From IMG/VR virus record IMGVR_UViG_3300045988_180769, positions 1-64,000 of that record: 64,000 bases of DNA. One strand, written 5' to 3'. Below the pieces are notes generated by a model, which did not search any database, was not told the origin of the DNA, and was given only the letters and a program-made list of their open reading frames with translations. The stretch comes from a virus. A program made the position numbers and the translations under genes. Numbering within the stretch: the first letter of the stretch is position 1; each line of letters starts with the position of its first letter. Below, piece after piece: positions 6,367-42,523 of the stretch.

Positions 6367-6798
6367 TTAGGGAATGTAATGTTCTATTTTAGTTTCTTTA
6401 ACATTAACGATCCTTGAATCATAATGTATATCGTTCATTTCTTTAAACGCGATTTTACTTGCTTCTGTAGAGTTCTTTGCTCTTACAAGAAAGTTCATTT
6501 TATAATTTTTCACTTTTCCTGTATGATCATTAATTTCGCTCCATTCTCCTTGACAAATGAACCATGGTCCTAAATCTTCTTCGTATACTCCTGAAATATC
6601 AATCTCTTTAATTGGTCTAATGGAATAATCTACATCAATATTCACATTGGCCCACTTTGTTGCAATTGATTCTGCGTGAGTATAATTTTCACCATAACAT
6701 GCAATTACATGAGTAAACTTCTTTATTCTTCCATTAAATGAGTCTGGATCAATATCATAATAGCTTATAGTAATTTCGAAATTCATCTTTGACAACAA
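6367..6798 (-). CDS. hypothetical protein, translationally coupled to the dpdA-like gene
   Basis: 143-aa ORF overlapping the upstream gene by 16 nt. The two halves look internally similar (YGENYTHAESIATKW versus AKNSTEASKIAFKEM). Confidence 0.65.
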   Translation of the reverse strand: MLSKMNFEITISYYDIDPDSFNGRIKKFTHVIACYGENYTHAESIATKWANVNIDVDYSIRPIKEIDISGVYEEDLGPWFICQGEWSEINDHTGKVKNYKMNFLVRAKNSTEASKIAFKEMNDIHYDSRIVNVKETKIEHYIP

Positions 6799-7568
6799 AA
6801 TTTTAAAAAATCGACATTATGTTCGATCAAAGGAATTTGTTCCTTTGTGATCGTTTTTTCAAAATAATCATGAGGAGTTGGTATTCTTTCAAACGATTGT
6901 TGACGAACTAAATCGATATTGTGAAGTGAAGAAAGAATAGGATAACAACTATCTGTGGATCGTACTATTTCTTCAGTGTAAGGATATGATAAAAACTCTC
7001 TTGGATCGCCTTGTCCTAAAAAATGCAATGGTTTCTTTAGAAGGTTTGATTTATCAAGTATCTCCACAAGATGAATTCTTGATGATGCAATCTCGTTGTC
7101 TCTCATAATATGAGGAATTGCTTTCTTACTCATTCCTATCGTAGCAACATGTTTGCTATACAAAAAGAACTTATAACATTCCATCCAATCTTTAAAAGTC
7201 TCTCCTTGTGGACACGCGAGAATGTTTGTATCATCCAACTCTCCTTTGATTTTTGCTTCTTTCATCCATTCAAGAAATTGATTGAAATTGATCAATGTTT
7301 GATCTTTATCATAAAGCACATCAAGTGGAATAACTTCATTTGGTTTTATTTCAAGTGTCAACTTGAATAATTCTTCATTAGTTAAAACTTCTCCTTCTTC
7401 TCCAGTACCATTGTCAAGTATAGTAAAACGACCATTTTGAATAGCTTCATGAACATACTTTCGATATGTTTCGTTTTTCTTATAATATTGACCTATAATA
7501 TAAAGATTATTATCTCCCAATTCACTTAATTCTAAATGATTCATAGGAGGAGTTAAAAATATTTTCAT
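6783..7568 (-). CDS. dpdA: DpdA-like (TGT-fold) DNA 7-deazaguanine transglycosylase, putative
   Basis: The ordered motifs ILDNGTGE, IPLDVLYD, ACPQG, IGMSK, LHFLGQG and RSTDSCYP match my recollection of the TIM-barrel TGT/DpdA pattern (DSG, QG, LHxxG, FDS). folE, queE and queD are also in the window. Confidence 0.6.
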   Translation of the reverse strand: MKIFLTPPMNHLELSELGDNNLYIIGQYYKKNETYRKYVHEAIQNGRFTILDNGTGEEGEVLTNEELFKLTLEIKPNEVIPLDVLYDKDQTLINFNQFLEWMKEAKIKGELDDTNILACPQGETFKDWMECYKFFLYSKHVATIGMSKKAIPHIMRDNEIASSRIHLVEILDKSNLLKKPLHFLGQGDPREFLSYPYTEEIVRSTDSCYPILSSLHNIDLVRQQSFERIPTPHDYFEKTITKEQIPLIEHNVDFLKFCCQR

Positions 7569-8206
7569 AAATTCTTTTTTATTTGATTAATAAATTCTTT
7601 TGCATTTTCTGGAACTTTTGCATTTTTAATTCCAGAATTCTCTTTTGCCCATAGAGGCTGTAAATTTCTGTAATTGAAGCAAATGTATAGTTGAGTTTCA
7701 TCGATTAAATTAAAATAACTTCTTGGAATGATATGATCAATCTGCCATCCTTCCTTTCCTCCATAATTATCCCAATTCATTTCTTCTTGAAATTGTTGTT
7801 CAAGATGTCGCTTTAAATGCTCAATTGAACAACCAAGAACTTTTAATAAACTTTGATACCAATTACATTTGTCAGGTTTAGTAGGTGGTATATTCAAAGC
7901 CTTGTATAATCTATTCGTATATAGCATTGAAGTTCTATAATTCTCATCTTGATATCTCTTTTTACTTCTCAAAGACTCTGCACCATTTTCTTGACGTTTT
8001 TGCCTTACTTTCTTTTGAGTAGACTTTCCTTTTTGTGATTGTCTATAATTCTTTTCTACTTCTTTTCCTCTTTCAGATTGTTTATAACGCATTTTTGCAG
8101 GCATGGCACATTCTTTGCATATGTAATATAAACCATCTTTATATGTTTTACATTTAAAAAAGTCTGTTTCATCCTTGTTTTTATTACATTTTGGACAATA
8201 TTTCAT
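7565..8206 (-). CDS. free-standing HNH endonuclease with an N-terminal zinc finger
   Basis: CPKCNKNK...YICKECA, then WQIDHIIPRSYF...NYRNLQPLWAKENSGIKN (H-N-N). Paralogue of 26371..27066. Confidence 0.85.
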   Translation of the reverse strand: MKYCPKCNKNKDETDFFKCKTYKDGLYYICKECAMPAKMRYKQSERGKEVEKNYRQSQKGKSTQKKVRQKRQENGAESLRSKKRYQDENYRTSMLYTNRLYKALNIPPTKPDKCNWYQSLLKVLGCSIEHLKRHLEQQFQEEMNWDNYGGKEGWQIDHIIPRSYFNLIDETQLYICFNYRNLQPLWAKENSGIKNAKVPENAKEFINQIKKNL

Positions 8207-8208
8207 AT

Positions 8209-9132
8209 TTAATCTTCTATTGAATAAACTACCTTTGTTCTTTCACTCAAACAAGTTAAAGCATGTATCATAAGATCTTTAACTCCTATTTTATTGTCTC
8301 CTTCTTCGATCTCCTCAAAAGAAAGATTTTTATTTTTTCTTTTATCCTTCTCCATCTTCTCATATCGAGACCTTCTTACTTTCATAGGAACGCACATAAC
8401 AATGATGTCATAATCAATCATTTGATCGAATGATTTTAGAACACCTTCTAATATACTAATTTGTCTACAACCAACAATGTAAATGTGTTTACTTTCTTGA
8501 AAAGGATTGTTCACTATTTCCATTATCTTATAATAGATGTTTTGAACAATCAAATTATCCAATGATCTATCAAATACTCTCGAAGTTGATGAAGTGATTT
8601 CTTGTACAATCTTACCAACTTCAATTGTGCAATCCAATACCTCTTTATTCTTTTGTACATAAGTTGTCTTTCCAGAAAAAGCCTCTCCTATGACAAAAAT
8701 AATTTTAGGAATTGGTTTTGTTGACTTCTTTTCTGGTATAATCGTCTCTATCAATTCTTTTCGCACACTCTTAATATCTTGTTCTACAATAGCATAGTTT
8801 TCGCCATCTTCACTTACTTTTACGCTGTCAAAACCAAATTGTATCAAGATCTCTTCAGCGATCATCTCACAGGATTTAGGACCAAAAGAACATACACCAA
8901 TGGTTTTATCTGGATAAGAGCTTAAAATCCATTGCTTTACTCTTCTATTAAGAATAATGAATTCTTCATCACGATCATTATGATTCACTCTCTTTCTACA
9001 TTCAATCTTAAATAGGTGTCTATGAGGATATTCAAGAAAACCAACTTCCTCACCATGATTTTTTGATGCTGTTGGATAATTGTGAAAACCTTCAACTTCT
9101 AATTTTATTCCTACAAATGCTTTCATAATCAA
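8209..9132 (-). CDS. QueD/PTPS-like domain fused to a P-loop NTPase/kinase-like domain
   Basis: The N-terminus (GFHNYP...FLEYPHRHLFKIE) resembles PTPS/QueD-like phage proteins. The C-terminus carries Walker A (GEAFSGKTT) and a hydrophobic strand (IYIVGC). Confidence 0.55.
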   Translation of the reverse strand: MIMKAFVGIKLEVEGFHNYPTASKNHGEEVGFLEYPHRHLFKIECRKRVNHNDRDEEFIILNRRVKQWILSSYPDKTIGVCSFGPKSCEMIAEEILIQFGFDSVKVSEDGENYAIVEQDIKSVRKELIETIIPEKKSTKPIPKIIFVIGEAFSGKTTYVQKNKEVLDCTIEVGKIVQEITSSTSRVFDRSLDNLIVQNIYYKIMEIVNNPFQESKHIYIVGCRQISILEGVLKSFDQMIDYDIIVMCVPMKVRRSRYEKMEKDKRKNKNLSFEEIEEGDNKIGVKDLMIHALTCLSERTKVVYSIED

Positions 9133-12939: not shown

Positions 12940-12940
12940 G

Positions 12941-12971
12941 TCTAAAGATACTAAATATTTATCACTTTCAA
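12941..12971 (-). promoter_or_regulatory. promoter candidate abutting the rnhA ATG (possible leaderless transcript)
   Basis: On the minus strand, TTG at 12971-12969 and TATCTTTA at 12950-12943, then GAC and the ATG at 12939. Confidence 0.45.
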
Positions 12972-17778: not shown

Positions 17779-18323
17779 TACTTATTATATTTTGAAAGTT
17801 CAGCTCGAAGGTTTTCGATATTATCACAAGAGTTATCTTGAATTTCTTCTTTTGGAATGTTCATCAAAATTAGATATGCTTCAGGAAATTGATCCTTTAA
17901 TTGCTTTGTCGTATTAATATTGTCCAATACACATCTCGTTCTTCCCTTCAAAGATCTTAGCTTCTCTTTCAATTGCTCAACTTCTCTAACAAATTTTACT
18001 CCTTCTTTTAAAGACATAATGCGATCAATAACATCTTCTTTGTTGTGAAAATTAGGAATAAAGTTGCTCACTGGAATGTGAATATATCTTCTATCTTCCT
18101 TTTTGGAAAAATCGCTAAAATAAAAGTATTCTCTTGTTGGAATTAAATCTTTGTATTTAGCTCTAAATGCTCTGATATCGTCAGGAGTTTCTCTTATGAG
18201 AAAGGGTTCCAATATATTTTTACTAAAATCCTCTATTTTTTGAGAAAGCTCTTTTTCAACTGGTTTGAGGATGTTTTTAACAATGTTTTCACGATCATCG
18301 TTTGTTAATCTTTGACTTGCCAT
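17778..18323 (-). CDS. hypothetical protein
   Basis: 181-aa ORF with a 1-nt overlap with ligA. Confidence 0.65.
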   Translation of the reverse strand: MASQRLTNDDRENIVKNILKPVEKELSQKIEDFSKNILEPFLIRETPDDIRAFRAKYKDLIPTREYFYFSDFSKKEDRRYIHIPVSNFIPNFHNKEDVIDRIMSLKEGVKFVREVEQLKEKLRSLKGRTRCVLDNINTTKQLKDQFPEAYLILMNIPKEEIQDNSCDNIENLRAELSKYNK

Positions 18324-27971: not shown

Positions 27972-30035
27972 TCACGATAAAACTGTAAAACGCGAATCTA
28001 AATTTGTTTGTAGAACATATTCTTGTCTCCATTTGTCATATTGAATGTAACCATCAATAAGAAGAATGTTTCCTTTGCTTTCTTGAATGAAATTGGAATA
28101 TTCAGCATAGATGTCAGAGAAGATGATTATATTAATGAATTCATAGTTACTTTCAAGAATAACTGTAGCGAAAGGTCCTTTTCTTGATTTTCTTTCTATC
28201 ACATCGATAACAAAGCCACCTATCGCACATTCAACTGATCTTCCTGTTCCATCCCAATACTTAATTTGACCTATATCAAAGAACTCAATATCGTCTGTCT
28301 TAATAAGATGATACTCATTGACGAGTGATTCGTAATCAAATGTAGCGAATCCAGAAAGTTTCTTTTGTTGTAAAATCCACCACCAATTGTTTTTCTCTTT
28401 TCGTGCTTTTATAATACTTGTTAACAAGTCTTTGTCTTCAAGTATCTTCACTTTCTTATTCTCTCGATATGATTCTATCAATCGAAGTCTTTCTTTTGGC
28501 TCTACAATACCTTCGAGTTTATCGAATGCACCACTATAAATCAAATTCTCGATCACTGACTTATTCACTGGAGAATTCTTTATTACACATCTATCGATAA
28601 ATTCTTCTAATGAAAAGAATTCACCATTCTCTTGTCTTTCATTGTGAATAAATTCTTGTGCTTTCTCTCCACATTGCTTTACTGAATTTAATGCCCAATA
28701 CATACTATTGGTCTTTATATCAGAAACAATGTTAATATCACTCATATTGATATCTACTGATTTAATCTCAATATTTCCTGATCTTTGAATTTCATTAATG
28801 TAATAGGGGTAATCTTTGATCTCAGCGTGTGAGAATGTTACAGACCAAAACTCTATTGGATAATGAACTTTCAACCAAATACAAATGTATCCATTTCTCG
28901 AATATGAAATAGCATGACTAAAGTTGAATGCATATTTACCAAACTCTTCCATTTGTTTCCATAATCCTTCTGCATCTTCTTTACTCACATCAAACTTATT
29001 CATGTACCCATCTACAAACTTGTCTTCAAATGCTTTTAGTTTTGACATGATCTTTTTACCCATTGCTTTTCTCACTGAGTCAGTAGTTTCAAGGTCAAAA
29101 CCAGCTAAATGTTGACAAAGTCTCATGATATCTTCTTGTGTAATCAAAAGTCCAAGATGTGGCTTTAAGATCTCTTCAGCTCCAACTGGATATACGATAT
29201 CACTATCACCTCTTTTTCGAAGAATGTATTCATTATGATAATTGTTTTCAATAGGACCTGGACGATACAATGCAGCACAAAGTCCCATTTCATCCAAACT
29301 CTCTGGTTGCATTTGTACACAATAAGAAGAAAGTCCTTTCGCTCCAAAGTGAAATACATCTCCAAGAAATCCTTGTTTAATATATTCAAACACAGTTGGA
29401 TCGTCAATAGGAATATCTTTATAGAGATCAAGTCTTATTCCATGATTTTTCTCGATAAGATCGACCATATCTGTCCATTTATCAAGTTGTGCAATTCCAA
29501 GAATATCTTCTTTAAGAAAACCAGCTTCTTCAATCTCGTTACCTTCCCATTCTGTGACAATCAATCCTTTTTGTTCTTTAACTGGTACCCATTGTGCAGA
29601 AATCTTATCATCTGGAAAGATAATCGTTCCACATGCATGTATACTCGCTGCTTTAGGAGAATTAAGACATACCATCACATCATTAATGAGTTCTGTATGG
29701 TCTTTCACAAACTCTCTTAATTCTGTGTCTTTGCATATAACTTTGAAAAAGTCTTCAATGCTTTTCATTCCTTCTTCATCTCGAAGTTTAGATGTTATTC
29801 TTCGAACTACTTGAATTGGAATACTTTCACACCTCGCGAGGTCAGTGATTGCAGCTTTTAACTGCATTGTTGTATATGTTCCTAAAGAAGTTACTTGTGT
29901 TGCTCCAAACCTCTTTTCCATATATTCTTTCACCCTTGGTCTTTGTCGACCACCAAAATCTGTATCAATGTCAGGTAAAGATCCAAGTTTGGTAGACTCA
30001 ACTACTTCTTTTTTAATCGTTTTAATTGTTATCAT
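27972..30035 (-). CDS. dnaE: DNA polymerase III alpha subunit, C-terminal piece (palm, fingers, OB)
   Basis: LPDIDTDFGG (catalytic Asp motif), FHFGAKGLS, LYRPGP and FNFSHAISYS. The track start at 30068 is GTG. The ATG at 30035 (MITIKTIKK...) overlaps the upstream stop by 14 nt and is likelier. Confidence 0.85.
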   Translation of the reverse strand: MITIKTIKKEVVESTKLGSLPDIDTDFGGRQRPRVKEYMEKRFGATQVTSLGTYTTMQLKAAITDLARCESIPIQVVRRITSKLRDEEGMKSIEDFFKVICKDTELREFVKDHTELINDVMVCLNSPKAASIHACGTIIFPDDKISAQWVPVKEQKGLIVTEWEGNEIEEAGFLKEDILGIAQLDKWTDMVDLIEKNHGIRLDLYKDIPIDDPTVFEYIKQGFLGDVFHFGAKGLSSYCVQMQPESLDEMGLCAALYRPGPIENNYHNEYILRKRGDSDIVYPVGAEEILKPHLGLLITQEDIMRLCQHLAGFDLETTDSVRKAMGKKIMSKLKAFEDKFVDGYMNKFDVSKEDAEGLWKQMEEFGKYAFNFSHAISYSRNGYICIWLKVHYPIEFWSVTFSHAEIKDYPYYINEIQRSGNIEIKSVDINMSDINIVSDIKTNSMYWALNSVKQCGEKAQEFIHNERQENGEFFSLEEFIDRCVIKNSPVNKSVIENLIYSGAFDKLEGIVEPKERLRLIESYRENKKVKILEDKDLLTSIIKARKEKNNWWWILQQKKLSGFATFDYESLVNEYHLIKTDDIEFFDIGQIKYWDGTGRSVECAIGGFVIDVIERKSRKGPFATVILESNYEFINIIIFSDIYAEYSNFIQESKGNILLIDGYIQYDKWRQEYVLQTNLDSRFTVLS

Positions 30036-31638
30036 AATCAACCAATATATCGTTTTCTTGTAAGTCACTCGCCTTTATCACCAATTTTTCATCTCCTCTA
30101 AAGATCCTAACAAAATCTTTGCTTTTAATTCTTATGGGTGATGAACTTTCTTCATTGATTATAACTTCCTCAACCTTCTCATGTCTTATCAATCGACCCA
30201 TTGTTAAAAACCTTTCAAACAGTAAGTCATAATCGAGAGGATTGACCTGAACAAGACCTAATAGGTAAGAGACTAAACTACCTGCTGCAGAACCTCTTCC
30301 TGAACCAAGTAAAATATTCTCTTTCTTACACCAATTCACGATATCTCTCAAAGTAAGAAAATAGTCAACTACCTTTCCATCTTCAATTACTTTAAGCTCA
30401 CGATCAAGTCTTTCCCCAATAATTTCATCTGAATACTTCTCAAGTAATTCTGGGTGTTCTTCGACACCTTTGAATACAAGATCTTCGAACATTTGAATAT
30501 TATCTTCATATTCGAGCGCTTCTTCGTCTGTCATATAATAAACAGGCATATGTCGATTTTGAGTTTCGATCAAGAAATTACATTCAAAGGAAATATCTTT
30601 CAAATTGCTTATTGCATTGTCATATGTTTCAATGAACTTATCGTCATCGCCAAATAATGAACCTAATTCCTCAAAATATTCTTGATAATTTTTGAAATAT
30701 TGATTTTGACTTTCGTGAGTAACAATCTTTCCTAATGAATTAACTTTCTTTTTGATAGGAGCAAGCTCTTTTTCTGTGTAATAAGCATCACACATTGCCA
30801 CTGGTTTTAAATTGCTTTTAAAGAACTTCTTTAGATTATCGAGATATGCTTTATCTCTTTCTTCTTTTTCAAATACAACTGTATCTAACTGATAATATTC
30901 CACTATTTCATTGAAACTCCTTGGAATATTTGAATAACTTATTGTTTTTGGGTCCCATATGAAAATTAACCCATCGTAATAGTCTTCTATATCCTCTTCT
31001 GAAACATATGAAGAACCTTCTACATTCATTATTTCACTGAGTCTCAATAAATTAGACCATCCTTCTTTGTTCTTTACAAATGCTTTAATGGTGTATCTAA
31101 GATCCTTTTTCTCATTTAGAACATTAATCTCAAGACCTTGAATTGGTCTAAGACCCACTTTTTGACATGCATCCTGAAATTTCATTGATGCAGCTAATGT
31201 TCCTCTTTCGCATATACCAAGACTTGTAATTCCTAAGAACTTTGCTTTCTTACACCATTCGTCATAAAGCTCTAATCCATTCATTAATTCAAAAGAGCCA
31301 TGAACACCAAGATATGTATCAATATACAATTCATCTGAAAATAGGTTTGCTTTTCCAATCCATTTAACTTTTTCAAGTTTAACATTGTTTTCATTACCTT
31401 TCTTCAATGAATACCATATACTACCAAACTTGAAAATATAATTATCATAATTGGTTCGATCACAAGCCCAATGAAATTCTTCATCAAAGAAAATCCCTTT
31501 ATCTTGATCCTCCCATTTGAATGGCTCAAAAAGCTCATATGTTTGTCCATCTATATTGATAACAAATTCACTAACTTCTTCATATAGAATGAAATTGTCA
31601 GCGAGATATTGTAATAACTCACCATATAATTCTCTCAT
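30022..31638 (-). CDS. dnaE: DNA polymerase III alpha subunit, N-terminal piece (PHP domain to LFERFL)
   Basis: PHP-like GVHGSFELMNG...GITSLGICERG and GSGRGSAAGSLVSYLLGLVQVNPLDYDLLFERFL, then a 56-aa non-polymerase tail before the stop. Confidence 0.85.
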   Translation of the reverse strand: MRELYGELLQYLADNFILYEEVSEFVINIDGQTYELFEPFKWEDQDKGIFFDEEFHWACDRTNYDNYIFKFGSIWYSLKKGNENNVKLEKVKWIGKANLFSDELYIDTYLGVHGSFELMNGLELYDEWCKKAKFLGITSLGICERGTLAASMKFQDACQKVGLRPIQGLEINVLNEKKDLRYTIKAFVKNKEGWSNLLRLSEIMNVEGSSYVSEEDIEDYYDGLIFIWDPKTISYSNIPRSFNEIVEYYQLDTVVFEKEERDKAYLDNLKKFFKSNLKPVAMCDAYYTEKELAPIKKKVNSLGKIVTHESQNQYFKNYQEYFEELGSLFGDDDKFIETYDNAISNLKDISFECNFLIETQNRHMPVYYMTDEEALEYEDNIQMFEDLVFKGVEEHPELLEKYSDEIIGERLDRELKVIEDGKVVDYFLTLRDIVNWCKKENILLGSGRGSAAGSLVSYLLGLVQVNPLDYDLLFERFLTMGRLIRHEKVEEVIINEESSSPIRIKSKDFVRIFRGDEKLVIKASDLQENDILVDYDNN

Positions 31639-32324: not shown

Positions 32325-32906
32325 TTATTTCGAAGAAAAGATGACCTCTTTTATTTTCTCAATTCTTTCTTCCACTGTACCAGTAATAACTATATGTGGA
32401 ATTTTATAGTTGTTCAAAAATTGGACAATCTTTCTATCTATATCTTGTTGAAAGACTTCATCAGAAGATCTTACTCCATCATCCACAACTGGAAATTCAA
32501 TAGGAAGATAAACCACAAGTTCCAACTCCTTTGCTCTCTGAAGAACTCTTTTTCTTTCTTCAAATTCTTCGAGAGAAAGATTTTGATATTCCTCCAAATC
32601 TTCAGAACAATTATCAAATAAAACTGAAGTATAAGCAGCAACATCTACAATACATCTGTCACTTATAGAAGGCTGTTCAAATGTCTTATCTAACAATTTG
32701 TCATACTCTTCAAAGATCTTATGTTGAGATTTTGCATTACCATTTTCATTAATGGTAACTTCTCCTTTCTTCAACATATCTCGAACCAATTCTGGATAAA
32801 AAGCCCATCCTTTGAAGGATGGGTCTTTCTTTAATGCTTCGAGTAATGTTGTCTTACCAGTTCCTTGTGTTCCACAAAGATTGATTCTTTTGTTCAACGT
32901 TTTCAT
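32325..32906 (-). CDS. P-loop ATPase/kinase, AAA_28 (NadR-like) type
   Basis: NLCGTQGTGKTTLLEAL Walker A, a DRC.VD segment, and VVDDGVRSSD. Confidence 0.6.
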   Translation of the reverse strand: MKTLNKRINLCGTQGTGKTTLLEALKKDPSFKGWAFYPELVRDMLKKGEVTINENGNAKSQHKIFEEYDKLLDKTFEQPSISDRCIVDVAAYTSVLFDNCSEDLEEYQNLSLEEFEERKRVLQRAKELELVVYLPIEFPVVDDGVRSSDEVFQQDIDRKIVQFLNNYKIPHIVITGTVEERIEKIKEVIFSSK

Positions 32907-33472
32907 CGATTATCACCTGCTCCATGAATTACTCCTCTCTTTTTTCGAGAGGCCAATTTCTCATTGTTTTGAACAGCAACTTCTTCAATAGTCATACCCA
33001 TACTATGACAAAGACCATTCAAATACTTCCAAATGTTTTTCCAAGACTCGAGTACAATTGGTTTTCTATGTTCAGGAAAGATTGATTCTTCTCCTTCTTT
33101 CCATTCATCTCTCAACCACTTCTTTACTTGTTCAGCAATCTTTCCTACTTCGACAGGAAGTTGAAATGGATCTGGTTTCAACATTTCACTCCAATTCCAA
33201 TCTTTTTCAAGTGGAAGATCAAGTTCAACTCGAATACTTGCTAAATACCATAATTGATCGCCAATTTCTTTTGACACTTCTTCGATCTGTTTCTTTTGAG
33301 ATTGATCGTCTATCTCAATGTTGATCTTTTCATATGTTTCACCAAGTTCTCCGCTTAAACCTAATACAACATAAGGAATGGCGACTTTTTGATCATAGGC
33401 CTTTGTTGTGATGGCCTTTTCTTCATACTCTCTGTAATTCATTTCTTTATTATTTAGAACAATTGTTTGCAA
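32903..33472 (-). CDS. MazG-like nucleoside triphosphate pyrophosphohydrolase
   Basis: LGLSGELGETYEKI and EIGDQLWYLA form the EExxE/D metal-binding helix pair of all-alpha NTP-PPases. Confidence 0.7.
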   Translation of the reverse strand: MQTIVLNNKEMNYREYEEKAITTKAYDQKVAIPYVVLGLSGELGETYEKINIEIDDQSQKKQIEEVSKEIGDQLWYLASIRVELDLPLEKDWNWSEMLKPDPFQLPVEVGKIAEQVKKWLRDEWKEGEESIFPEHRKPIVLESWKNIWKYLNGLCHSMGMTIEEVAVQNNEKLASRKKRGVIHGAGDNR

Positions 33473-34211
33473 TTAATTTACAAAAATTAATGAAATCATC
33501 CTGTGTTAAAGTTGATTTCATAATATTTACGCTTTTATGAACCCATTGAACGTTTCCTTCGATATAACCCTTCGACGAATCAATTCTATCTAAAGATATT
33601 GTTGATTCTAAACGACCTCTTTTAGATCCTAAACTGTAATTCGATATACATAAATCAATGCCAGATAGAGCACATTTCATATTTTGCTGTTTAAGTAAGT
33701 TATCAAGATATTCGTTTGAAACATTCCATTCTAAATTTCTTGCCACAGCTCCTTCTTGAGCTCTTCTAATAACTGAAAGATTCAAATTTCCAATCTTTTT
33801 ACTTCCCTTATTTATTCTACAATTTTGACAACAAGAACTTCTTCCTCCTGTTAAAAATGTAATTCTGACATAATTTTCTTCTCCACAATCACACTTTACT
33901 CTATAAGATCTTTCTTTACTTTTGGTTAAAACCTTGAAATCCTCTTTATCAACTATAGTCCAATGTCCAAATTTCATTCCAGTTTCTACTACAGTCCAAT
34001 GTTTTGGTTTTTGCTTTTTTGCTGCAATAGTTGCTCCATATCTACATTTTAAGCATTGTTTTGAAGTTCCTGTTTTTAGATCGTAAAATCTTTTTGTTAT
34101 AACTTCTCCACATTCACATTGAACTTTAACTTGTCCTCCTGGAATTATTTCTATTATGGTCCATTTACCATACTTGTCTCCAATTTTAGGATATATTGTT
34201 TCTAACTTCAT
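33450..34211 (-). CDS. HNH-family (His-Me finger)-like endonuclease with duplicated Cys-rich modules, putative
   Basis: Two repeats (GKWTIIE...CECGE...CLKCR and GHWTIVD...CDCGE...CQNCR), then SLDRIDSSKGYIEGNVQWVHKSVNIMK. Confidence 0.5.
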   Translation of the reverse strand: MKLETIYPKIGDKYGKWTIIEIIPGGQVKVQCECGEVITKRFYDLKTGTSKQCLKCRYGATIAAKKQKPKHWTVVETGMKFGHWTIVDKEDFKVLTKSKERSYRVKCDCGEENYVRITFLTGGRSSCCQNCRINKGSKKIGNLNLSVIRRAQEGAVARNLEWNVSNEYLDNLLKQQNMKCALSGIDLCISNYSLGSKRGRLESTISLDRIDSSKGYIEGNVQWVHKSVNIMKSTLTQDDFINFCKLIANNCSK

Positions 34212-34840
34212 TTTTTTACATTTGAAATCATATCAAAAAATTCTTTTCTTGATCCAATTTCATTAGTTTTAAAATATCCACTACAATATGAAGTTTGCAT
34301 TGTTGAATCTTGTTCAATTCCTCTCAATTTAACGCACATATGCTCAGCTTTAATAAAAACAATTACTCCTTGATTATCTGGTAAAATTTCACAAAGATAA
34401 TCATGTATTTGTTTTGTTAAAAACTCTTGAGTTTGAGGACGTTTTGATAAAAAATCTACAATACGATTTAGTTTGGATAAACCTATAATATCACCATCTT
34501 TTTTTGGAATATAAGCTAAATGACAAATTCCAACTATACTTGCAAAATGATGAGCACATAAGCTGTGAACAGGTATATCTCCTTGAAATACAATACCATC
34601 ATATTGAGAATCATTTGGAAATACTGTGATCTTTGGAGGATTATCGTATGCTCCTGATGTAATTTCTTTTACATACATTTTTGCTACTCGAAAAGGAGTC
34701 TTCTTCATCGACTCATCATTTTCCCAATCGTATCCCAATGCTGTTAAAAACTCACCATACGCTTTTTCAGCGTCTTTTAACATCTTCTCTCTTTCTTCTT
34801 CTGACAGAATCATATTCTGTCCTGATTTAATTTTCTTCAT
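34208..34840 (-). CDS. folE: GTP cyclohydrolase I
   Basis: VHSLCAHHFASIVG, GLSKLNRIVDFLSKRPQTQEFLT and AEHMCVKLRG, the FolE type I signature motifs. Confidence 0.85.
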   Translation of the reverse strand: MKKIKSGQNMILSEEEREKMLKDAEKAYGEFLTALGYDWENDESMKKTPFRVAKMYVKEITSGAYDNPPKITVFPNDSQYDGIVFQGDIPVHSLCAHHFASIVGICHLAYIPKKDGDIIGLSKLNRIVDFLSKRPQTQEFLTKQIHDYLCEILPDNQGVIVFIKAEHMCVKLRGIEQDSTMQTSYCSGYFKTNEIGSRKEFFDMISNVKK

Positions 34841-34843
34841 AAT

Positions 34844-35695
34844 TTATCTGTATCTTTCTGTTCCCCAAATAACAATTTGCAATCTATCTGAATAGATAAA
34901 ACCATTCTTTGCACAATATTCTGCCACCATTTTCCTATTTTGATCTAATTCTTCGTTGGTCGATCCTGATGGCATTAATATAATATTTAGTGGTTGAATA
35001 AATTCATCATCTTCCCATACAATATTAGAATTTCTATATAGAGGGACTTTCATTCGATTTCTTTTATAAACATCATAATCGATAAGATCTTTAATTTGTT
35101 GATGAATTTCTTCAAAATCATTTTTGCTACCAACAACATATTTCAATCTAAAGTCCTGAGAATATGTCAATAAGTCCCATAATGCATCTATATTCCAACG
35201 ATTTTTAGAATGATTTTTCATGACTTCTGTCATCTTCATTCCAAGTTTAGCGCATTTCTCTTCTGTAGGTTCTGATGACTTTAATTTAGGAGAAATATTA
35301 ATTAAATCAATATTTCCTATTATTTTTGGACAAGGTGCTATTGTTCCATTTGTTTCAACGATTACATTTTTATCATAGGTTTTAGCAATTTCAATAATGT
35401 CTCTAACGATTTCAGGATAAAGAAATACTTCGCCACCTGTAATAGATATATCTTTTGTCAATGGATATTTTTCAATTTCATCTATTATAGACTGGTATGT
35501 ATACTTTCCTTTTTCAGGATTAAAACTTGAATACGCTGTATCACAAATACTATTATCAAAACAGCATCTAAGATTACAACCACTTAATCGAACAAACAAA
35601 GTTGGATTCCCAGTTGTGATTCCTTCACCTTCTATCGAAGTAAATACCTCAATAATTGGTCTATATTTAGAAAGATCTATATTACTTATTTTCAT
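34844..35695 (-). CDS. queE: 7-carboxy-7-deazaguanine synthase (radical SAM)
   Basis: FTSIEGEG, VRLSGCNLRCCFDNSICDT (Cys cluster) and ITGGEVFLY. Confidence 0.8.
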   Translation of the reverse strand: MKISNIDLSKYRPIIEVFTSIEGEGITTGNPTLFVRLSGCNLRCCFDNSICDTAYSSFNPEKGKYTYQSIIDEIEKYPLTKDISITGGEVFLYPEIVRDIIEIAKTYDKNVIVETNGTIAPCPKIIGNIDLINISPKLKSSEPTEEKCAKLGMKMTEVMKNHSKNRWNIDALWDLLTYSQDFRLKYVVGSKNDFEEIHQQIKDLIDYDVYKRNRMKVPLYRNSNIVWEDDEFIQPLNIILMPSGSTNEELDQNRKMVAEYCAKNGFIYSDRLQIVIWGTERYR

Positions 35696-36327
35696 ACTTG
35701 TTGATCTACTTTAGGATTTATAAACAAATCTTCATTTGGATTTTTATATGACGATTTTCCTTTCAAATACCAATTCCAGAGATCAGTTCCCCAATCTTTA
35801 GTTACTCCTGTCGAAAATTGAATAGTACCTTCTTTAGTCTCTCCATTTGTCATCACACCAAAAATATTTGGCATATCTAACAAATCTGAAACAAAACTTG
35901 TTGCACTTCCAGTTCTTGTTTCGTAATATTGTACAGAAAGAGCTGTCAATTCAGCTTCACCATTATTCGTTTGAGTGCACATAAGAATACCTTGAATTGC
36001 AGATAAAAGAAATAATGAGAGCATTTCAGCAGAAGGATTAAATGGAAGACTTATCCATCTATCACTATGCTTCATGATGAACTTAATATATTCTTCATCA
36101 TCCTGATTCCAAAACACAGTGCAGTGATCAAAAGAATCAATAAATTGCTTAATTGACCCTTTCATTAATCCAAAATCATAAATCATACCTGCATTATCTA
36201 ATTTAGAAGCAGTGAGACTTACAAGAACTTTGTAAGAATGACCATGAATAGATCTCTTACATCTTTCTGTTGAACAATTGCGCACAATGTGTGCCATTTC
36301 ACCTTCGAATTCTTTAGTAATTATCAT
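35692..36327 (-). CDS. queD: 6-carboxy-5,6,7,8-tetrahydropterin synthase
   Basis: FEGEMAHIV, CKRSIHGHSYKV and MIYDFG, the PTPS/QueD fold motifs. Confidence 0.75.
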   Translation of the reverse strand: MIITKEFEGEMAHIVRNCSTERCKRSIHGHSYKVLVSLTASKLDNAGMIYDFGLMKGSIKQFIDSFDHCTVFWNQDDEEYIKFIMKHSDRWISLPFNPSAEMLSLFLLSAIQGILMCTQTNNGEAELTALSVQYYETRTGSATSFVSDLLDMPNIFGVMTNGETKEGTIQFSTGVTKDWGTDLWNWYLKGKSSYKNPNEDLFINPKVDQQV

Positions 36328-39817: not shown

Positions 39818-42523
39818 TTATATTAGAGTTATTCCAACTTTGACTTCTTTTTCATCTTCTCTCAAACTATTGATTGCTAAAAATGCACTCATGGTGATAT
39901 CGTCATGTCCTGAACTTGCTTCGAGTTTACCATTATCACTTTTAAATGTAATAGAAGCAAACTCTCCAAACATTATTTCCACTGCTTGTTTTGTTTCTCC
40001 AGGAGCATATGGACATTTGATCTGTCCTCTTTCAAACATTGCTGAAAGACTTGGCAATCCAGTATAAAGATCCTTTTTATTTCCTTCAGTTGTTGTAAAT
40101 GGCTCTATATTTTTTAATCCTCTTTCTTGTGCCAATCCTGATAATATGGACTGAAATCCATTCGCTTCACATATAATTTTGTTTGGTCTAAAAAGACGAT
40201 CAAGTTGAACAATCTTATCTACCTGCTCATTATGAGACATTCCTTTTTGCCTATAATAATAAAGTAAATAGAAGTTCTTCATTGCATCAATGCCCCAAAC
40301 TGAATAAACAGTATAGTCAGCACCAATATTACCAGACACAGCAAAGTCAACACCAATATGAACTCTTGTCAACTTGATTGGAAATTCATCTATTGAACTC
40401 GCAAACCTTATATTCTCCATTCCAACAATACTTCTCATAAGGTATTCATATGGAAAGATCGTTGAAGAGTCACTAATTGGAACAACTAAATATTCTCGAT
40501 TGAATACAATTGTTCCAAGTTCTTCTTTCTTTTCGAGTATCTGTGAAAAAGTAAATCTATCTGGTGCCAATGGACGTCCATTTGGAAAGACGATTGGATA
40601 TTCAAAGCAATAAAATCGTTTATCTGCTTTTAATAATTGATACAATTCATTAGGAGCTGAAGAGAATGGAGTTCCACAAATAAGAAAATATCCATAAGGT
40701 TCTACGATAGGCTCTATTGTACCTTTTAAAAGCTCTTTCATCTTTTCTCTCTGTTCATCTGAATAAAGAGATGATTCATCAGGCATGTCATCGCATAATG
40801 CAGCTCCAACATGAAGACCTCGAATAAATCCATCCTTACCACGAACATGAAGAATTGAACCAGTTTCTGTTGTGATACCAGTCTCACCAATAGACGCTTT
40901 ATTGTTTGGATTTAACTTTTCCTTAATAAGATCATTTGTTTCAATTTCTTCTCTCACTTTGGCAACTTGTACTTTCGCCAGTGTCATCGTAGAAGTGATG
41001 TAACAAGTTTCCTTTCTATTGGCATTATCTATTGTATCAGGTCTCCAAACAGTTGGTCTACAATAACTCCACAATCTCCATAATATAAAAGCATAAGACC
41101 ACTCAAAACTATTGTGAACTACTGTTCCATCTTTATGAAGATATAAATGATCACCATCAAGATAAAAACCATAGAATTTTGTTCTCTCACCTTTGGTAAC
41201 TTCAATCTTTCCTCTTCTATAGTCTTGTCTATAATGAATCTGATGAGCTCGTTTTCTCTCGACTCTTGTTGGAATTGTATGTAAATCCAATGAAATTCTT
41301 AATTCGTCTCTACTAAATCCTTTTATAGTTCGTGAGCTTAAAGAAGTTCTAAATCCTAAAGACCAGGCTAAATCTTGAACTTGTTTAATAAAACTTCCTG
41401 ATTTTAAAGTTAATTCAAAAATAGTTCCTGTTGAACTTAAATGTCCATCTGTATCAAGTATTCCTGCTAATAATTGAAGTCTCTGCTCTCGAGAACCTCT
41501 CATATAAATATCAGGAATATGTTTATTATTCAATACATTAAGCTCTCTAAGAACATTCAAAACTGGATTAATCTCTCCATGTTTTTGTTCAACATTGGTT
41601 AAAGAATATTCGTATTTGTTTTTTAATTTGAATAATTTCATTCCAAGTGATTCTGCATACTCTTTCCAAGCATCTATAATTTCTATATCTGCAGAAGTCA
41701 ACTTTGTACAATTACTATGTCTATCTCCTAACCAAGTTCCAAAAATATATGGATCAATAGGAAGTGATTGATCAGAAAGCTCCCAACCATTAATTCTGTA
41801 ACCATATAATCTTTTTTGTTTTGATCTTGGAAGATCATAAAAATCCTTTGCTGAAATTTCAACTATTTCTTGTCCATTCTTTCTATAATTTCCATGTCCA
41901 TATTCCATATATCCAAACTTATCTTTTTGTAGATGAAGTATGTGTCTGGAATTAACAACATAATCTAATCCATGTTTTTGCTTAATATGATAAGAATCAT
42001 CTTCACATACGTGAGTTTGTAGAACTACTCGAGGTGTCGAATCGACACCCATCACTTTATCTCCTACTTTAATATCTTCGATCTTTTTTAAAGACCCATC
42101 AAACATTACAACTTCAGTTCCAGCGATCTCTGTTTTTCCACTTGCTCTACTACACAAGTAACAGCTCCATGGAAAAAGTTGTGTTAAATTTCCCCATTCA
42201 ATATTTCTCCATCCCATTCTGAACTTTGGGAGCATTGTTGTTTTGAAATAATTGAACGATAAAATTTTAAGCGTAGAATCCATTGAAGATTTTACATTCT
42301 CAACATACTCAAGATTCTCTGAATCAAGTGATTTACCCAGATATAACGCTCTTTCTGCCTGTGTTGTCATTTCTTTTAGCATCGCATCAACATCATTATC
42401 ATATCCTTCCATGAGTTGATATAATGCTTTTCCAGGAAGAGCTTCAATTACTTTATCTATTGTATCACATAAATAATTGAGTTGTATGTTTGAAAGTAAG
42501 TCTTTTCCATCAGGTGTTAGCAT
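39818..42523 (-). CDS. terL: terminase large subunit, interrupted by an intein in Walker A
   Basis: The extein reads CSRASGK|SFEWSYAFILW (P-loop). The C-terminal RNase H-like nuclease domain has HIGVDFAVSGNIGADYTV, ICEANGFQ and SGHDDITMSAFLA. Confidence 0.85.
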   Translation of the reverse strand: MLTPDGKDLLSNIQLNYLCDTIDKVIEALPGKALYQLMEGYDNDVDAMLKEMTTQAERALYLGKSLDSENLEYVENVKSSMDSTLKILSFNYFKTTMLPKFRMGWRNIEWGNLTQLFPWSCYLCSRASGKTEIAGTEVVMFDGSLKKIEDIKVGDKVMGVDSTPRVVLQTHVCEDDSYHIKQKHGLDYVVNSRHILHLQKDKFGYMEYGHGNYRKNGQEIVEISAKDFYDLPRSKQKRLYGYRINGWELSDQSLPIDPYIFGTWLGDRHSNCTKLTSADIEIIDAWKEYAESLGMKLFKLKNKYEYSLTNVEQKHGEINPVLNVLRELNVLNNKHIPDIYMRGSREQRLQLLAGILDTDGHLSSTGTIFELTLKSGSFIKQVQDLAWSLGFRTSLSSRTIKGFSRDELRISLDLHTIPTRVERKRAHQIHYRQDYRRGKIEVTKGERTKFYGFYLDGDHLYLHKDGTVVHNSFEWSYAFILWRLWSYCRPTVWRPDTIDNANRKETCYITSTMTLAKVQVAKVREEIETNDLIKEKLNPNNKASIGETGITTETGSILHVRGKDGFIRGLHVGAALCDDMPDESSLYSDEQREKMKELLKGTIEPIVEPYGYFLICGTPFSSAPNELYQLLKADKRFYCFEYPIVFPNGRPLAPDRFTFSQILEKKEELGTIVFNREYLVVPISDSSTIFPYEYLMRSIVGMENIRFASSIDEFPIKLTRVHIGVDFAVSGNIGADYTVYSVWGIDAMKNFYLLYYYRQKGMSHNEQVDKIVQLDRLFRPNKIICEANGFQSILSGLAQERGLKNIEPFTTTEGNKKDLYTGLPSLSAMFERGQIKCPYAPGETKQAVEIMFGEFASITFKSDNGKLEASSGHDDITMSAFLAINSLREDEKEVKVGITLI
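41111..42133 (-). mobile_element. intein (341 aa) with a LAGLIDADG endonuclease in the TerL P-loop; apparent Thr at position 1
   Basis: TEIAGTEVVMFDGSLKK aligns residue for residue with CLGKDTNILMYDGSLKK of the helicase intein. It ends GTVVHN followed by Ser+1. LAGLIDADG motifs are IFGTWLGDRHS (degenerate) and LLAGILDTDGH. Confidence 0.8.

What the first reader, a model, noticed from the sequence alone, without database searches (positions are those of the whole stretch)
32325..36327. folE-queE-queD cassette for a 7-deazaguanine base, with no queC anywhere in the window
Seen: three adjacent, overlapping genes carry the signature motifs of GTP cyclohydrolase I (LCAHH, HMCVKLRG), radical-SAM QueE (GCNLRCC...C, GGE) and QueD (HGHSY). 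A TGT-fold DpdA-like gene lies at 6783..7568. No ORF in the window has the PP-loop SGGxDS motif of QueC. Established: FolE, QueD and QueE convert GTP to 7-carboxy-7-deazaguanine (CDG). QueC converts CDG to preQ0. Phage DpdA enzymes exchange guanine in DNA for 7-deazaguanine derivatives as an anti-restriction strategy. Inference: this phage replaces G in its DNA with a 7-deazaguanine. If queC is truly absent from the whole genome, the inserted base should be CDG-derived (carboxy- or decarboxylated deazaguanine) rather than preQ0, ADG or G+.
Basis: partly seen in the sequence, partly recalled or inferred. Interest (0 to 1): 0.75.

Follow-up and report, generated by a model that had tools for sequence, protein, structure and literature searches.

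The report
Gut phage 7-deazaguanine DNA pathway
This human-gut phage carries the full gene set that marine Cellulophaga phage phiST uses to replace every guanine in its DNA with 7-deazaguanine, so it is a new example of a published system, and its kinase fusion hints at how the unproven steps work.

Summary
FolE (34208-34840), QueE (34844-35695) and QueD (35692-36327) are real. ORF 6783-7568 has a TGT fold. No QueC exists in any frame of the window.

- The stated span holds six genes. The extra three are a homing endonuclease, a MazG-like pyrophosphatase and an AAA_28 kinase.
- ORF 8209-9132 is DpdL, the proposed CDG decarboxylase with motif LEYPHRHLF, fused to an NMP-kinase-like domain.
- ORF 6783-7568 is an orthologue of phiST CGPG_00065, which is DpdA3.
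- This exact gene set was published in 2023. In phiST, dG is fully replaced by 2'-deoxy-7-deazaguanine (dDG).

The window comes from a 106-kb human-gut metagenome contig. I found no QueC on 79% of that contig. I found none on close relatives that cover the remaining 21%.

Best call: a phiST-type dDG system, a new member of a known kind, confidence 0.8.

One new angle emerged. DpdL, a kinase and DpdA3 are contiguous or fused in every DpdL-type locus I examined. A dNTP-hydrolase-type gene (MazG-, dUTPase/DCD- or HD-type) also lies nearby. This keeps open a pre-replicative route through the nucleotide pool, which the 2023 paper discarded.

The parts
35692..36327 (-). QueD (6-carboxytetrahydropterin synthase), long form, 211 aa, motif C-x4-HGH
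   Evidence: PF01242 2.6e-20. phrog_2389 1.2e-20. PDB 7v0f 1e-48 over residues 1-201 with the identical RCKRSIHGHSYK motif. TIGR03367 3.9e-18, below its cut-off.
34844..35695 (-). QueE (radical-SAM 7-carboxy-7-deazaguanine synthase); cluster cysteines C40, C44, C51 (CX3CX6C)
   Evidence: phrog_2076 1e-44. PF04055 2.5e-8. B. subtilis QueE 5tgs 9e-9. Five best NCBIfam hits are QueE models, all below cut-off. 29% identical to phiST QueE, 6e-34. The extended cysteine spacing is shared with the phiST, immuto, L116 and L117 QueE proteins.
34208..34840 (-). FolE (GTP cyclohydrolase I)
   Evidence: PF01227 1.4e-49. NF006826 168.3 bits against a cut-off of 162. 44% identical to phiST FolE, 2e-61.
33450..34211 (-). 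HNH homing-type endonuclease inserted in the cassette; not a pathway enzyme
   Evidence: phrog_3322 7e-21 and phrog_374 1e-18. phiST has no gene at this position, between FolE and MazG.
32903..33472 (-). MazG-like all-alpha nucleoside-triphosphate pyrophosphohydrolase; orthologue of phiST CGPG_00068
   Evidence: phrog_229 1e-22. PF03819 1.2e-4, 22.7 bits against a cut-off of 22. 33% identical to phiST CGPG_00068, 5e-26.
32325..32906 (-). AAA_28 / dNK-like P-loop kinase ('Kin1'); substrate unknown
   Evidence: PF13521 1.7e-21 and dNK 6e-5. phrog_2107 'thymidylate kinase' 2e-28. Homologues lie next to or near DpdA3 in Campylobacter CP220 gp057 (8e-14), Flavobacterium immuto gp203 (1e-18) and locus L116 (7e-12). 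Also present in 89 Streptomyces phage records; in the one examined it has no que-gene neighbours.
8773..9132 (-). DpdL domain (T-fold, QueD-like; proposed CDG decarboxylase), residues 1-120 of ORF 8209-9132; motif LEYPHRHLF
   Evidence: 50% identical to phiST CGPG_00067, 1.6e-31. tblastn hit to phiST. Invariant H17, L33, H37, H39, F41 in 50 homologues. The model matches E. coli QueD 4ntk, TMt 0.71. phrog_17812 2.6e-33.
8209..8730 (-). NMP-kinase-like P-loop domain fused to DpdL (residues about 135-307); homologue of phiST CGPG_00066
   Evidence: 31.5% identical to phiST CGPG_00066, 3e-15. Family profile against PDB sequences: SSO1041 adenylate-kinase-related protein 1.9e-7, adenylate kinase 1 5.6e-5, UMP/CMP kinase 6e-4. 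Foldseek: UMP/CMP kinase 5ukd 7e-7, 3lw7 8e-7, polynucleotide kinase 4gp7 1.7e-6. 27 of 50 family members hit Pfam AAA_18. Walker A GEAFSGKT; G221, R223 and Q224 conserved.
7565..8206 (-). Endonuclease VII / HNH-like mobile endonuclease inserted between the DpdL-kinase gene and dpdA3
   Evidence: phrog_1035 1.2e-9. Present at this position in only 2 of 13 IMG/VR relatives. Homologues sit at other positions in at least 30 related contigs.
6783..7568 (-). DpdA3 (TGT-fold guanine transglycosylase family); orthologue of phiST CGPG_00065
   Evidence: tblastn: phiST, phi13:1 and phi19:2 37.5% identity, 5e-50, 98% coverage; Campylobacter CP220 26%, 2e-9; immuto 'DNA guanine transglycosylase' 26%. AF2 pLDDT 95.6. 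Foldseek top 50 hits are all TGT. Invariant D52, E78, D83, Q121, H182, E191, D206.
6367..6798 (-). DUF4494 protein directly downstream of dpdA3; role unknown; conserved neighbour in this clade
   Evidence: PF14902 2e-14. Found directly after DpdA3 in 13 IMG/VR relatives at 44-52% identity. Not detected in phiST, MA9V-3 or loci L116-L118.

Best explanation
The window carries a phiST-type pathway for 2'-deoxy-7-deazaguanine (dDG) in DNA, split into two blocks about 23 kb apart on the minus strand of a roughly 106-kb human-gut phage genome.

Proposed steps:
1. FolE converts GTP to dihydroneopterin triphosphate.
2. QueD makes 6-carboxytetrahydropterin.
3. Radical-SAM QueE makes 7-carboxy-7-deazaguanine (CDG).
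4. There is no QueC, so the route stops at CDG.
5. The T-fold protein DpdL removes the carboxyl group to give 7-deazaguanine (DG).
6. The TGT-fold enzyme DpdA3 exchanges guanine for DG. The final DNA then carries dDG in place of dG, probably completely as in phiST, and resists restriction enzymes whose sites contain G.
7. The MazG-like pyrophosphatase, the NMP-kinase-like domain fused to DpdL and the AAA_28 kinase belong to the same functional unit. They most likely act on guanine or deazaguanine nucleotides.

Shown here: gene identities, orthology to the phiST genes, the folds, absence of QueC, and conserved synteny.

Inferred from the literature: the chemistry of steps 1-3, which is established for the families, and dDG as the product, which was measured in phiST, phi19:2 and phi13:1.

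Unproven anywhere: DpdL as a decarboxylase, the substrate of DpdA3 (DNA or nucleotide), and the roles of MazG and the kinases.
For: - Every phiST cassette gene from CGPG_00065 to CGPG_00071 has a counterpart in the window. The scores for FolE, QueE, MazG, DpdL, the CGPG_00066-type kinase and DpdA3 are listed under the parts. The window QueD is the exception: it is a different, 7v0f-type form that does not match phiST QueD by BLASTP.
- The DpdL motif LxxxHRHxF defined in PMC10516641 is present as LEYPHRHLF and is invariant in 50 homologues.
- DpdA3 has a TGT fold.
- No QueC: none in the window; none on 83.5 kb of the 106-kb source contig; none on a strain that is 99% identical over the 2.2-kb overlap, or on the closest IMG/VR relative, which together close the circle at 105.96 kb; none in 14 + 80 related loci.
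- Pfam scans of all minus-strand ORFs of at least 45 aa, except the 3766-aa tail protein, gave no QueC, QueF or ArcS hit. The precomputed Pfam hits for the 3766-aa protein show only Baseplate_J, PEGA and CarboxypepD_reg.
- The same DpdL -> kinase -> DpdA3 order, with QueD and QueE nearby and no QueC, recurs in three divergent metagenomic loci and in Chryseobacterium phage MA9V-3.
- phiST, phi19:2 and phi13:1 DNA contain dDG and no detectable dG.
Against: - No chemistry was measured for this phage.
- DpdL and DpdA3 could not be reconstituted in E. coli by the authors who named them, so the decarboxylase assignment is a prediction.
- 21% of the source genome was checked only through relatives at about 77-99% nucleotide identity.
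- The host, probably a Bacteroidota species, is likely to have its own QueC. It could supply preQ0.
- DpdA3 has no Pfam TGT hit and no CxCxxC zinc motif. Alignment of its catalytic residues to E. coli Tgt is weak (hhalign probability 2%).
- The QueE and QueD matches fall below NCBIfam equivalog cut-offs.
Confidence: 0.8

Rival explanations
1. Same genes and same product (dDG), but made before replication. MazG hydrolyses dGTP to dGMP. DpdA3, possibly with DpdL, exchanges or creates the deazaguanine base on a mononucleotide. The DpdL-fused NMP kinase and the AAA_28 kinase phosphorylate it towards dDGTP. The phage DnaE polymerase incorporates it. dGTP removal would explain 100% replacement.
For: - The kinase is fused to DpdL here, in all 13 IMG/VR relatives and in roughly 45 of the best 150 representatives at 50% clustering.
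- DpdL, kinase and DpdA3 are contiguous in phiST, MA9V-3, L116, L117 and L118.
- A gene of a dNTP-hydrolase type is always nearby although its fold differs: MazG-like in the window and phiST; DCD/dUTPase-like in MA9V-3, L117 and L118; HD domain fused to a P-loop in CP220.
- CP220 DpdA3 is flanked by two P-loop proteins.
- The kinase domain is closest to NMP kinases.
- DpdA3 is a bare 261-aa barrel without the zinc subdomain.
- A modified-dGTP route was proposed earlier for Campylobacter phages (PMC6884629). The ADG nucleoside was detected in infected cells.
- DpdL + DpdA alone gave no dDG in E. coli.
Against: - No TGT-fold enzyme is known to act on a mononucleotide (my own knowledge).
- The 2023 authors concluded that insertion is post-replicative because every such phage has a DpdA.
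- MazG and dNMP kinases are common in phage replication modules. The AAA_28 kinase family also occurs in 89 Streptomyces phage records, and the one region examined has no que genes around it.
- The kinase fold also resembles polynucleotide 5'-kinase.
Confidence: 0.35
2. The pathway stops at CDG, and DpdA3 inserts the carboxylated base (dCDG), as reported for Sulfolobus virus STSV-2. The DpdL-like domain would have another role.
For: QueC is absent. DpdL activity has never been demonstrated. dCDG exists in nature (abstract of PMC10516641).
Against: phiST has the same genes. CDG was looked for in its DNA and not detected, while dDG replaced dG completely. The DpdL motif and its invariant residues are fully conserved here.
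Confidence: 0.05
3. The phage makes CDG and relies on host QueC, or on an unknown amidotransferase, so the inserted base is preQ0 or ADG, as in Campylobacter phages that carry DpdA3 without QueC.
For: According to PMC10516641, Campylobacter phages stop synthesis at CDG and carry dADG. They encode DpdA3, as shown here for CP220. Many Bacteroidota make queuosine and so have QueC (my own knowledge).
Against: The DpdL search returned no Campylobacter phage. Window DpdA3 is much closer to phiST DpdA3 (37.5%) than to the Campylobacter one (26%).
Confidence: 0.06
4. The que genes do not serve DNA modification. They boost queuosine precursor supply for host or phage tRNA. ORF 6783-7568 would act on tRNA.
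For: TGT-fold enzymes classically act on tRNA.
Against: Every tested DpdA3 phage has fully modified DNA. The genes sit in the DNA replication module next to DnaE, RecA, ligase and helicases. There is no QueC, QueF or QueA to reach a tRNA-relevant base. ARAGORN was not run.
Confidence: 0.02

Closest known systems
Cellulophaga phage phiST dDG system: FolE-QueD-QueE-MazG-DpdL-CGPG_00066-DpdA3 (Cui, Hutinet et al., NAR 2023, PMC10516641)
   Same: Same seven functions, orthologous at 29-50% identity except QueD. No QueC. The DpdL motif LxxxHRHxF is present. DpdA3 is full length. The host phylum is probably also Bacteroidota. The local order DpdL -> kinase -> DpdA3 is the same.
   Different: - phiST has one contiguous cassette of about 4.1 kb. 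Here there are two blocks 23 kb apart, with the replication genes between them.
- DpdL and the kinase are fused into one 307-aa protein.
- Two homing-type endonucleases are inserted.
- There is an extra AAA_28 kinase.
- QueD is a long 7v0f-type form, not detectably similar to phiST QueD by BLASTP.
- The genome is about 106 kb and from the human gut. phiST is 79 kb and marine.
Campylobacter phage CP220 / Firehammervirus dADG system (DpdA3, complete dG replacement)
   Same: DpdA3 homologue (26% identity). According to PMC10516641, synthesis stops at CDG without a phage QueC. An AAA_28-type kinase homologue lies next to DpdA3. A phosphohydrolase is adjacent.
   Different: No DpdL. The product is the amide (dADG), not DG. 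The phosphohydrolase is an HD domain fused to a P-loop protein, not MazG.
[quoted passage not shown]
   Same: DpdA3, FolE, QueD and QueE are present. An AAA_28-type kinase lies two genes from DpdA3, and the DUF4494 annotation appears in the cluster.
   Different: It encodes QueC, QueF and a formyltransferase (DpdN), so it proceeds to a preQ1 derivative. It has no DpdL.
DpdA1/DpdA2 phage systems (e.g. phage 9g dG+, preQ0 phages) and the bacterial Dpd system
   Same: A 7-deazaguanine base made from GTP through FolE, QueD and QueE. A TGT-superfamily transglycosylase is present.
   Different: According to the 2023 paper, those systems use preQ0 as the key intermediate, which is made with QueC or Gat-QueC, and they modify only 0.1-30% of G. 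From my own knowledge, their DpdA keeps the zinc site and is detected by Pfam PF01702. The window protein is not detected by Pfam.
T4 hydroxymethyl-dC and S-2L/phiVC8 dZ pathways (dNTP pyrophosphatase + dNMP-modifying enzyme + dNMP kinase)
   Same: The logic matches only under the pre-replicative reading. A dNTPase removes the canonical dNTP and supplies the dNMP. An enzyme changes the base. A kinase returns it to the pool. Replacement is complete (my own knowledge).
   Different: The enzymes are not homologous. No evidence yet shows that DpdA3 works on nucleotides.

Membership tests
phiST-type dDG DNA-modification system | FolE, QueD and QueE present (CDG synthesis) | tested here: met
phiST-type dDG DNA-modification system | No QueC (PP-loop SGGxDS, PF06508) in the phage genome | tested here: met
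   A QueC HMM on six-frame translations gave no hit in the window or in record positions 14,773-98,311 of the 106,012-bp source contig. The remaining 21% was covered only by a strain 99% identical over the 2.2-kb overlap (L122) and by the closest IMG/VR relative (L115), both negative. Controls were positive.
phiST-type dDG DNA-modification system | DpdL: QueD-like T-fold with LxxxHRHxF replacing CxxxHGH | tested here: met
   LEYPHRHLF is present. 50% identity to phiST DpdL. The fold matches QueD.
phiST-type dDG DNA-modification system | DpdA3 subfamily transglycosylase | tested here: met
   37.5% identity, 5e-50, 98% coverage to phiST CGPG_00065. TGT fold.
phiST-type dDG DNA-modification system | dG replaced by dDG in virion DNA | not testable with these tools
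   This needs LC-MS/MS of phage DNA. It was measured only for phiST, phi19:2 and phi13:1.
TGT/DpdA superfamily (ORF 6783-7568) | TGT-type TIM-barrel fold | tested here: met
   AF2 pLDDT 95.6 and pTM 0.92. The Foldseek top 50 PDB hits are all TGT, probability 1.00.
TGT/DpdA superfamily (ORF 6783-7568) | Catalytic acidic residues (nucleophile Asp and general acid/base Asp) | tested here: inconclusive
   D52, D83, E191 and D206 are invariant or nearly so. hhalign places LGQGDPRE191 on E. coli Tgt MGVGKPED, but at only 2% probability. The nucleophile position would be Glu rather than Asp. That residue assignment rests on my recollection of TGT.
TGT/DpdA superfamily (ORF 6783-7568) | Zinc site CxCxxC...H | tested here: not met
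   The sequence has no such motif, and the family has no conserved Cys cluster. This seems to be a trait of the short DpdA3 proteins.
TGT/DpdA superfamily (ORF 6783-7568) | Sequence-profile match to Pfam PF01702 | tested here: not met
   No Pfam or NCBIfam hit. A family profile against PDB sequences finds no TGT. The 2023 paper reports HHpred 98.8% for the phiST orthologue.
QueE (7-carboxy-7-deazaguanine synthase) | Radical-SAM three-cysteine cluster site and QueE-specific profile | tested here: met
   C40, C44 and C51 are spaced CX3CX6C, not CX3CX2C. This spacing is shared with phiST, immuto, L116 and L117. The top five NCBIfam hits are QueE models, but all fall below their cut-offs.
QueD (6-carboxytetrahydropterin synthase) | Catalytic Cys plus zinc-binding HGH motif | tested here: met
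   CKRSIHGH is present, identical to the solved synthase 7v0f.
NMP kinase (C-terminal domain of ORF 8209-9132) | Walker A P-loop, NMP-binding segment, LID arginines, NMP-kinase fold | tested here: inconclusive
   Walker A GxxxSGK[ST] is invariant; G221, R223, Q224 and R256 are conserved. Profile and fold searches place NMP kinases first. Polynucleotide kinase scores almost as well by fold. The substrate is unknown.
QueC / Gat-QueC | PP-loop ATP pyrophosphatase domain | tested here: not met
   No ORF or frame matches. This confirms the system is not a preQ0-type pathway.

The most novel reading that the evidence does not exclude
DpdA3-type systems, the only 7-deazaguanine systems that replace 100% of G, may work on the nucleotide pool rather than on finished DNA. 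A dGTP pyrophosphatase (MazG-, dUTPase/DCD- or HD-type) would make dGMP and remove dGTP. The zinc-less TGT barrel DpdA3 would swap the base on a mononucleotide. The kinase that is fused or adjacent to DpdL would rephosphorylate the product for the phage polymerase. The CGPG_00066-type kinase would then be the 'other unknown enzyme' whose absence made the published DpdL + DpdA reconstitution fail.
Probability: 0.33. Interest if true: 0.8.

Novelty: new member of a known kind. Interest (0 to 1): 0.42.

Why it matters
- Reach: complete G-to-7-deazaguanine replacement is so far documented only in marine Cellulophaga phages. This locus places the same machinery in a large clade of about 105-kb human-gut phages. 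Their capsid-region 548-aa protein matches at least 148 IMG/VR stretches. Several DpdA3 clusters hold hundreds of member sequences.
- Practical consequences: such DNA should resist most restriction enzymes. My inference is that this could bias enzymatic library preparation or nanopore base calling for these phages.
- Biochemistry: the conserved DpdL-kinase fusion and the nearby dNTP-hydrolase-type gene give a concrete gene set for reconstituting dDG synthesis, which has failed so far. They also offer a direct test of whether insertion happens before or after replication.

Tried and rejected
- Megablast of the cassette against 50,697 phage records: no match. The phage has no close sequenced isolate.
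- Single-sequence PDB searches for the AAA_28 kinase, the MazG-like protein and the DpdL-kinase fusion: nothing significant.
- DpdA3 family profile against PDB sequences: only chance hits. The TGT relation is visible only by fold.
- hhalign of DpdA3 against the single E. coli Tgt sequence: 2% probability.
- IMG/VR scan with the last right-flank protein: nothing found. I closed the genome through L122 and L115 instead.
- AAA_28 kinase as a marker specific to 7-deazaguanine phages: rejected. 89 Streptomyces phage records carry it, and the one region examined has no que genes around it.
- Adenylosuccinate synthetase in locus L117 as PurZ (a 2-aminoadenine genome): rejected. It matches PurA at 1e-88 against PurZ at 1e-15.
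- DUF4494 as a universal partner of DpdA3: not supported outside this clade.

Full report
**What is in the sequence**

The window has 32% G+C, and essentially all long ORFs lie on the minus strand. The stated span 32325-36327 holds six genes, not three.
- QueD, 35692-36327: PF01242 2.6e-20. It matches PDB 7v0f, a 6-carboxytetrahydropterin synthase, at 1e-48 over the full length, with the same RCKRSIHGHSYK motif.
- QueE, 34844-35695: phrog_2076 1e-44. Its five best NCBIfam hits are all QueE models. It matches B. subtilis QueE at 9e-9.
- FolE, 34208-34840: PF01227 1.4e-49.
- An HNH endonuclease, 33450-34211.
- A MazG-like pyrophosphatase, 32903-33472: phrog_229 1e-22.
- An AAA_28/dNK-like kinase, 32325-32906: PF13521 1.7e-21.

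QueD and QueE overlap by 4 nt. QueE and FolE are 3 nt apart.

**The second block**

ORF 6783-7568 has no Pfam or NCBIfam hit. By tblastn it matches the 'hypothetical proteins' of Cellulophaga phages phiST, phi13:1 and phi19:2 at 37.5% identity, 5e-50 and 98% coverage. Chryseobacterium phage MA9V-3 matches at 35%. Campylobacter phages such as CP220 match at 26%. The annotated 'DNA guanine transglycosylase' of the Flavobacterium immuto phages also matches.

I built an AlphaFold model from 60 homologues. It has pLDDT 95.6. Its 50 best PDB matches are all tRNA-guanine transglycosylases.

Two genes upstream, ORF 8209-9132 (307 aa) has two domains.
- Residues 1-118 match phiST CGPG_00067 at 50% identity and carry LEYPHRHLF.
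- Residues about 140-290 match phiST CGPG_00066.

**Match to a published system**

PMC10516641 (NAR 2023) describes exactly this set in phiST. That phage has FolE, QueD and QueE but no QueC. CGPG_00065 was named DpdA3. CGPG_00067 was named DpdL, a proposed CDG decarboxylase with motif LxxxHRHxF. CGPG_00068 is a MazG/dUTPase-like protein. In phiST DNA, dG is undetectable and is replaced by 2'-deoxy-7-deazaguanine. CDG was not detected.

The phiST gene order is QueD-QueE-FolE-MazG-DpdL-00066-DpdA3. The window has the same genes in the same relative order. They are interrupted by two homing-type endonucleases and by about 23 kb of replication genes: DnaE, RecA, an SbcD-like protein, ligase, SNF2, RNase H and UvrD.

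**Is QueC really absent?**

- I built a QueC HMM from seven sequences: E. coli, five phage QueC proteins and one Gat-QueC. I ran it with --max on all six frames. It found nothing at E<=10 in the window.
- It also found nothing in the flanks of the source contig, in 14 IMG/VR relatives, in the phiST region or in the MA9V-3 region. The controls scored 2e-104 and 3e-24. No SGGxD[ST] motif occurs in any frame.
- The window comes from a 106,012-bp human-gut metagenome contig (ERZ917822). Three look-ups gave record positions 14,773-98,311.
- I closed the remaining arc in two steps. L122 is a strain 99% identical over the 2.2-kb overlap, and it adds 9.45 kb. L115 is the closest IMG/VR relative, and it adds 12.97 kb. 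L115 joins back to the left flank.
- The pieces sum to 105.96 kb. That equals the contig length, so the contig is probably a complete, circularly permuted genome.
- No QueC lies on this path. None lies in 1.5 Mb of 80 related contigs.
- So QueC absence is direct for 79% of the genome and indirect for 21%.

**What the extra genes say**

The DpdL-kinase fusion is not a peculiarity of this contig.
- It is a single reading frame in all 13 IMG/VR relatives.
- Roughly 45 of the best 150 representatives at 50% clustering have the same two-domain length. In total, 1777 proteins matched at E<=0.001.

The model of the fusion (pLDDT 89.8) has two parts. The first is a QueD-like T-fold (E. coli QueD, TMt 0.71). 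The second is a P-loop domain whose best matches are UMP/CMP kinase, the AMP-bound adenylate-kinase-related protein SSO1041 and adenylate kinases. Polynucleotide kinase scores close behind. A family profile against PDB sequences gives the same order: 3lw7 at 1.9e-7, adenylate kinase 1 at 5.6e-5 and UMP/CMP kinase at 6e-4.

Three divergent DpdA3 loci (37-43% identity to the window protein) show the same contiguous order DpdL, kinase, DpdA3. The first two are fused in L118. QueD and QueE lie upstream, and FolE or FolE2 was identified in two of the three. None has QueC.

A gene of a dNTP-hydrolase type is nearby in every case, but its fold varies.
- MazG-like: the window and phiST.
- DCD/dUTPase-like: MA9V-3, L117 and L118.
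- HD domain fused to a P-loop: CP220.

The AAA_28 kinase has homologues beside or near DpdA3 in CP220, immuto and L116. The family is also found in Streptomyces phages. In the one examined it has no que-gene neighbours.

The 2023 paper stated that other phages lack CGPG_00066 homologues. Wider sampling shows that the kinase is a constant partner of DpdL.

**Mechanism**

Steps GTP -> H2NTP -> CPH4 -> CDG follow from established family functions. CDG -> DG by DpdL and G/DG exchange by DpdA3 are published predictions that have not been reconstituted.

The conserved kinase linkage and the nearby dNTP-hydrolase-type gene fit poorly with a purely post-replicative exchange on DNA. Destroying dGTP would be counter-productive if dG must first be polymerised. 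They fit a T4-like nucleotide-pool route. The 2019 paper (PMC6884629) still allowed such a route for Campylobacter phages.

I rate the identity of the system at 0.8. I rate the pre-replicative variant of its mechanism at about one in three.

**Novelty and interest**

This is a new member of a known, published kind. It is notable for three reasons: it sits in an abundant human-gut phage clade, it has a split and fused architecture, and it supplies a testable lead on the unresolved biochemistry.

Noticed in passing
window 9914-12472, 12972-15821, 39818-42523 (all minus strand): Three essential genes carry intein-like insertions. The UvrD-type helicase and the terminase large subunit have both Hint and LAGLIDADG homing-endonuclease domains. 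For the SNF2 helicase only the homing-endonuclease domains (LAGLIDADG_3, Hom_end) were detected.
   Followed up: no
window 27972-30068 and 30022-31638 (minus strand): DnaE (Pol III alpha) is encoded as two ORFs that overlap by 47 nt. They split at Pfam PF07733 profile position 98/100, with about 85 extra residues at the junction. Relatives MA9V-3 and L118 have a single DnaE of about 1185 aa. The cause could be a frameshift, a split gene or an assembly error.
   Followed up: no
window 46209-51647 and 51702-63002 (minus strand): Two giant tail or baseplate proteins of 1812 aa and 3766 aa. They have repeated CarboxypepD_reg domains and a Baseplate_J hit. The 3766-aa protein varies by 15-17 residues between strains.
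   Followed up: no
window 6367-6798 (minus strand): A DUF4494 protein sits directly after dpdA3 and is kept there in 13 relatives. A gene annotated DUF4494 also lies between folE and dpdA3 in Flavobacterium phage immuto. phmmer did not link the two, and the domain was not found in the other dDG loci.
   Followed up: partly
window 7565-8206; loci L014, L018, L037-L114: The endonuclease between the DpdL-kinase gene and dpdA3 is present at that site in only 2 of 13 relatives. Homologues sit next to the 548-aa structural gene in at least 30 related contigs. It behaves as a mobile homing element.
   Followed up: partly
window 17778-18323 (minus strand): A weak, sub-threshold hit to Pfam Nmad5 (nucleotide modification associated domain 5): 1.3e-4, 22.6 bits against a cut-off of 27.
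   Followed up: no
L119 (Campylobacter phage CP220) 5847-8340: DpdA3 (gp056) is flanked by an HD-phosphohydrolase::P-loop fusion (gp055) and a 'thymidylate kinase' (gp057). The latter is a homologue of the window's AAA_28 kinase at 8e-14.
   Followed up: partly
L118 7879-8454; L028 (immuto) 12774-13169: A phosphoribosyltransferase gene lies inside the que/dpdA3 cluster in two unrelated phages. It could salvage released guanine or turn a deazaguanine base into a nucleotide.
   Followed up: no
L117 11778-13776: A DpdA3/DpdL locus from a MAG contig (GCA_029935855.1) also encodes a Vut_1 family protein (from memory, the YhhQ queuosine-precursor transporter family) and an adenylosuccinate synthetase. 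The synthetase is PurA-like (1e-88), not PurZ (1e-15).
   Followed up: yes
L002 (Chryseobacterium phage MA9V-3) 10647-11528: In MA9V-3 the annotated 293-aa CDS upstream of the kinase combines a region similar to the window's HNH endonuclease (33450-34211) with the DpdL domain in one reading frame.
   Followed up: no
L035/L115 (IMGVR_UViG_3300045988_181155): The IMG/VR contig closest to the source by the 548-aa structural protein (90% identity) was not returned by the DpdA3 pattern scan. The best DpdA3 hit in that scan was 69% identical over the full length (80% for one truncated copy). Either the scan missed it, or close relatives differ in their modification module.
   Followed up: no
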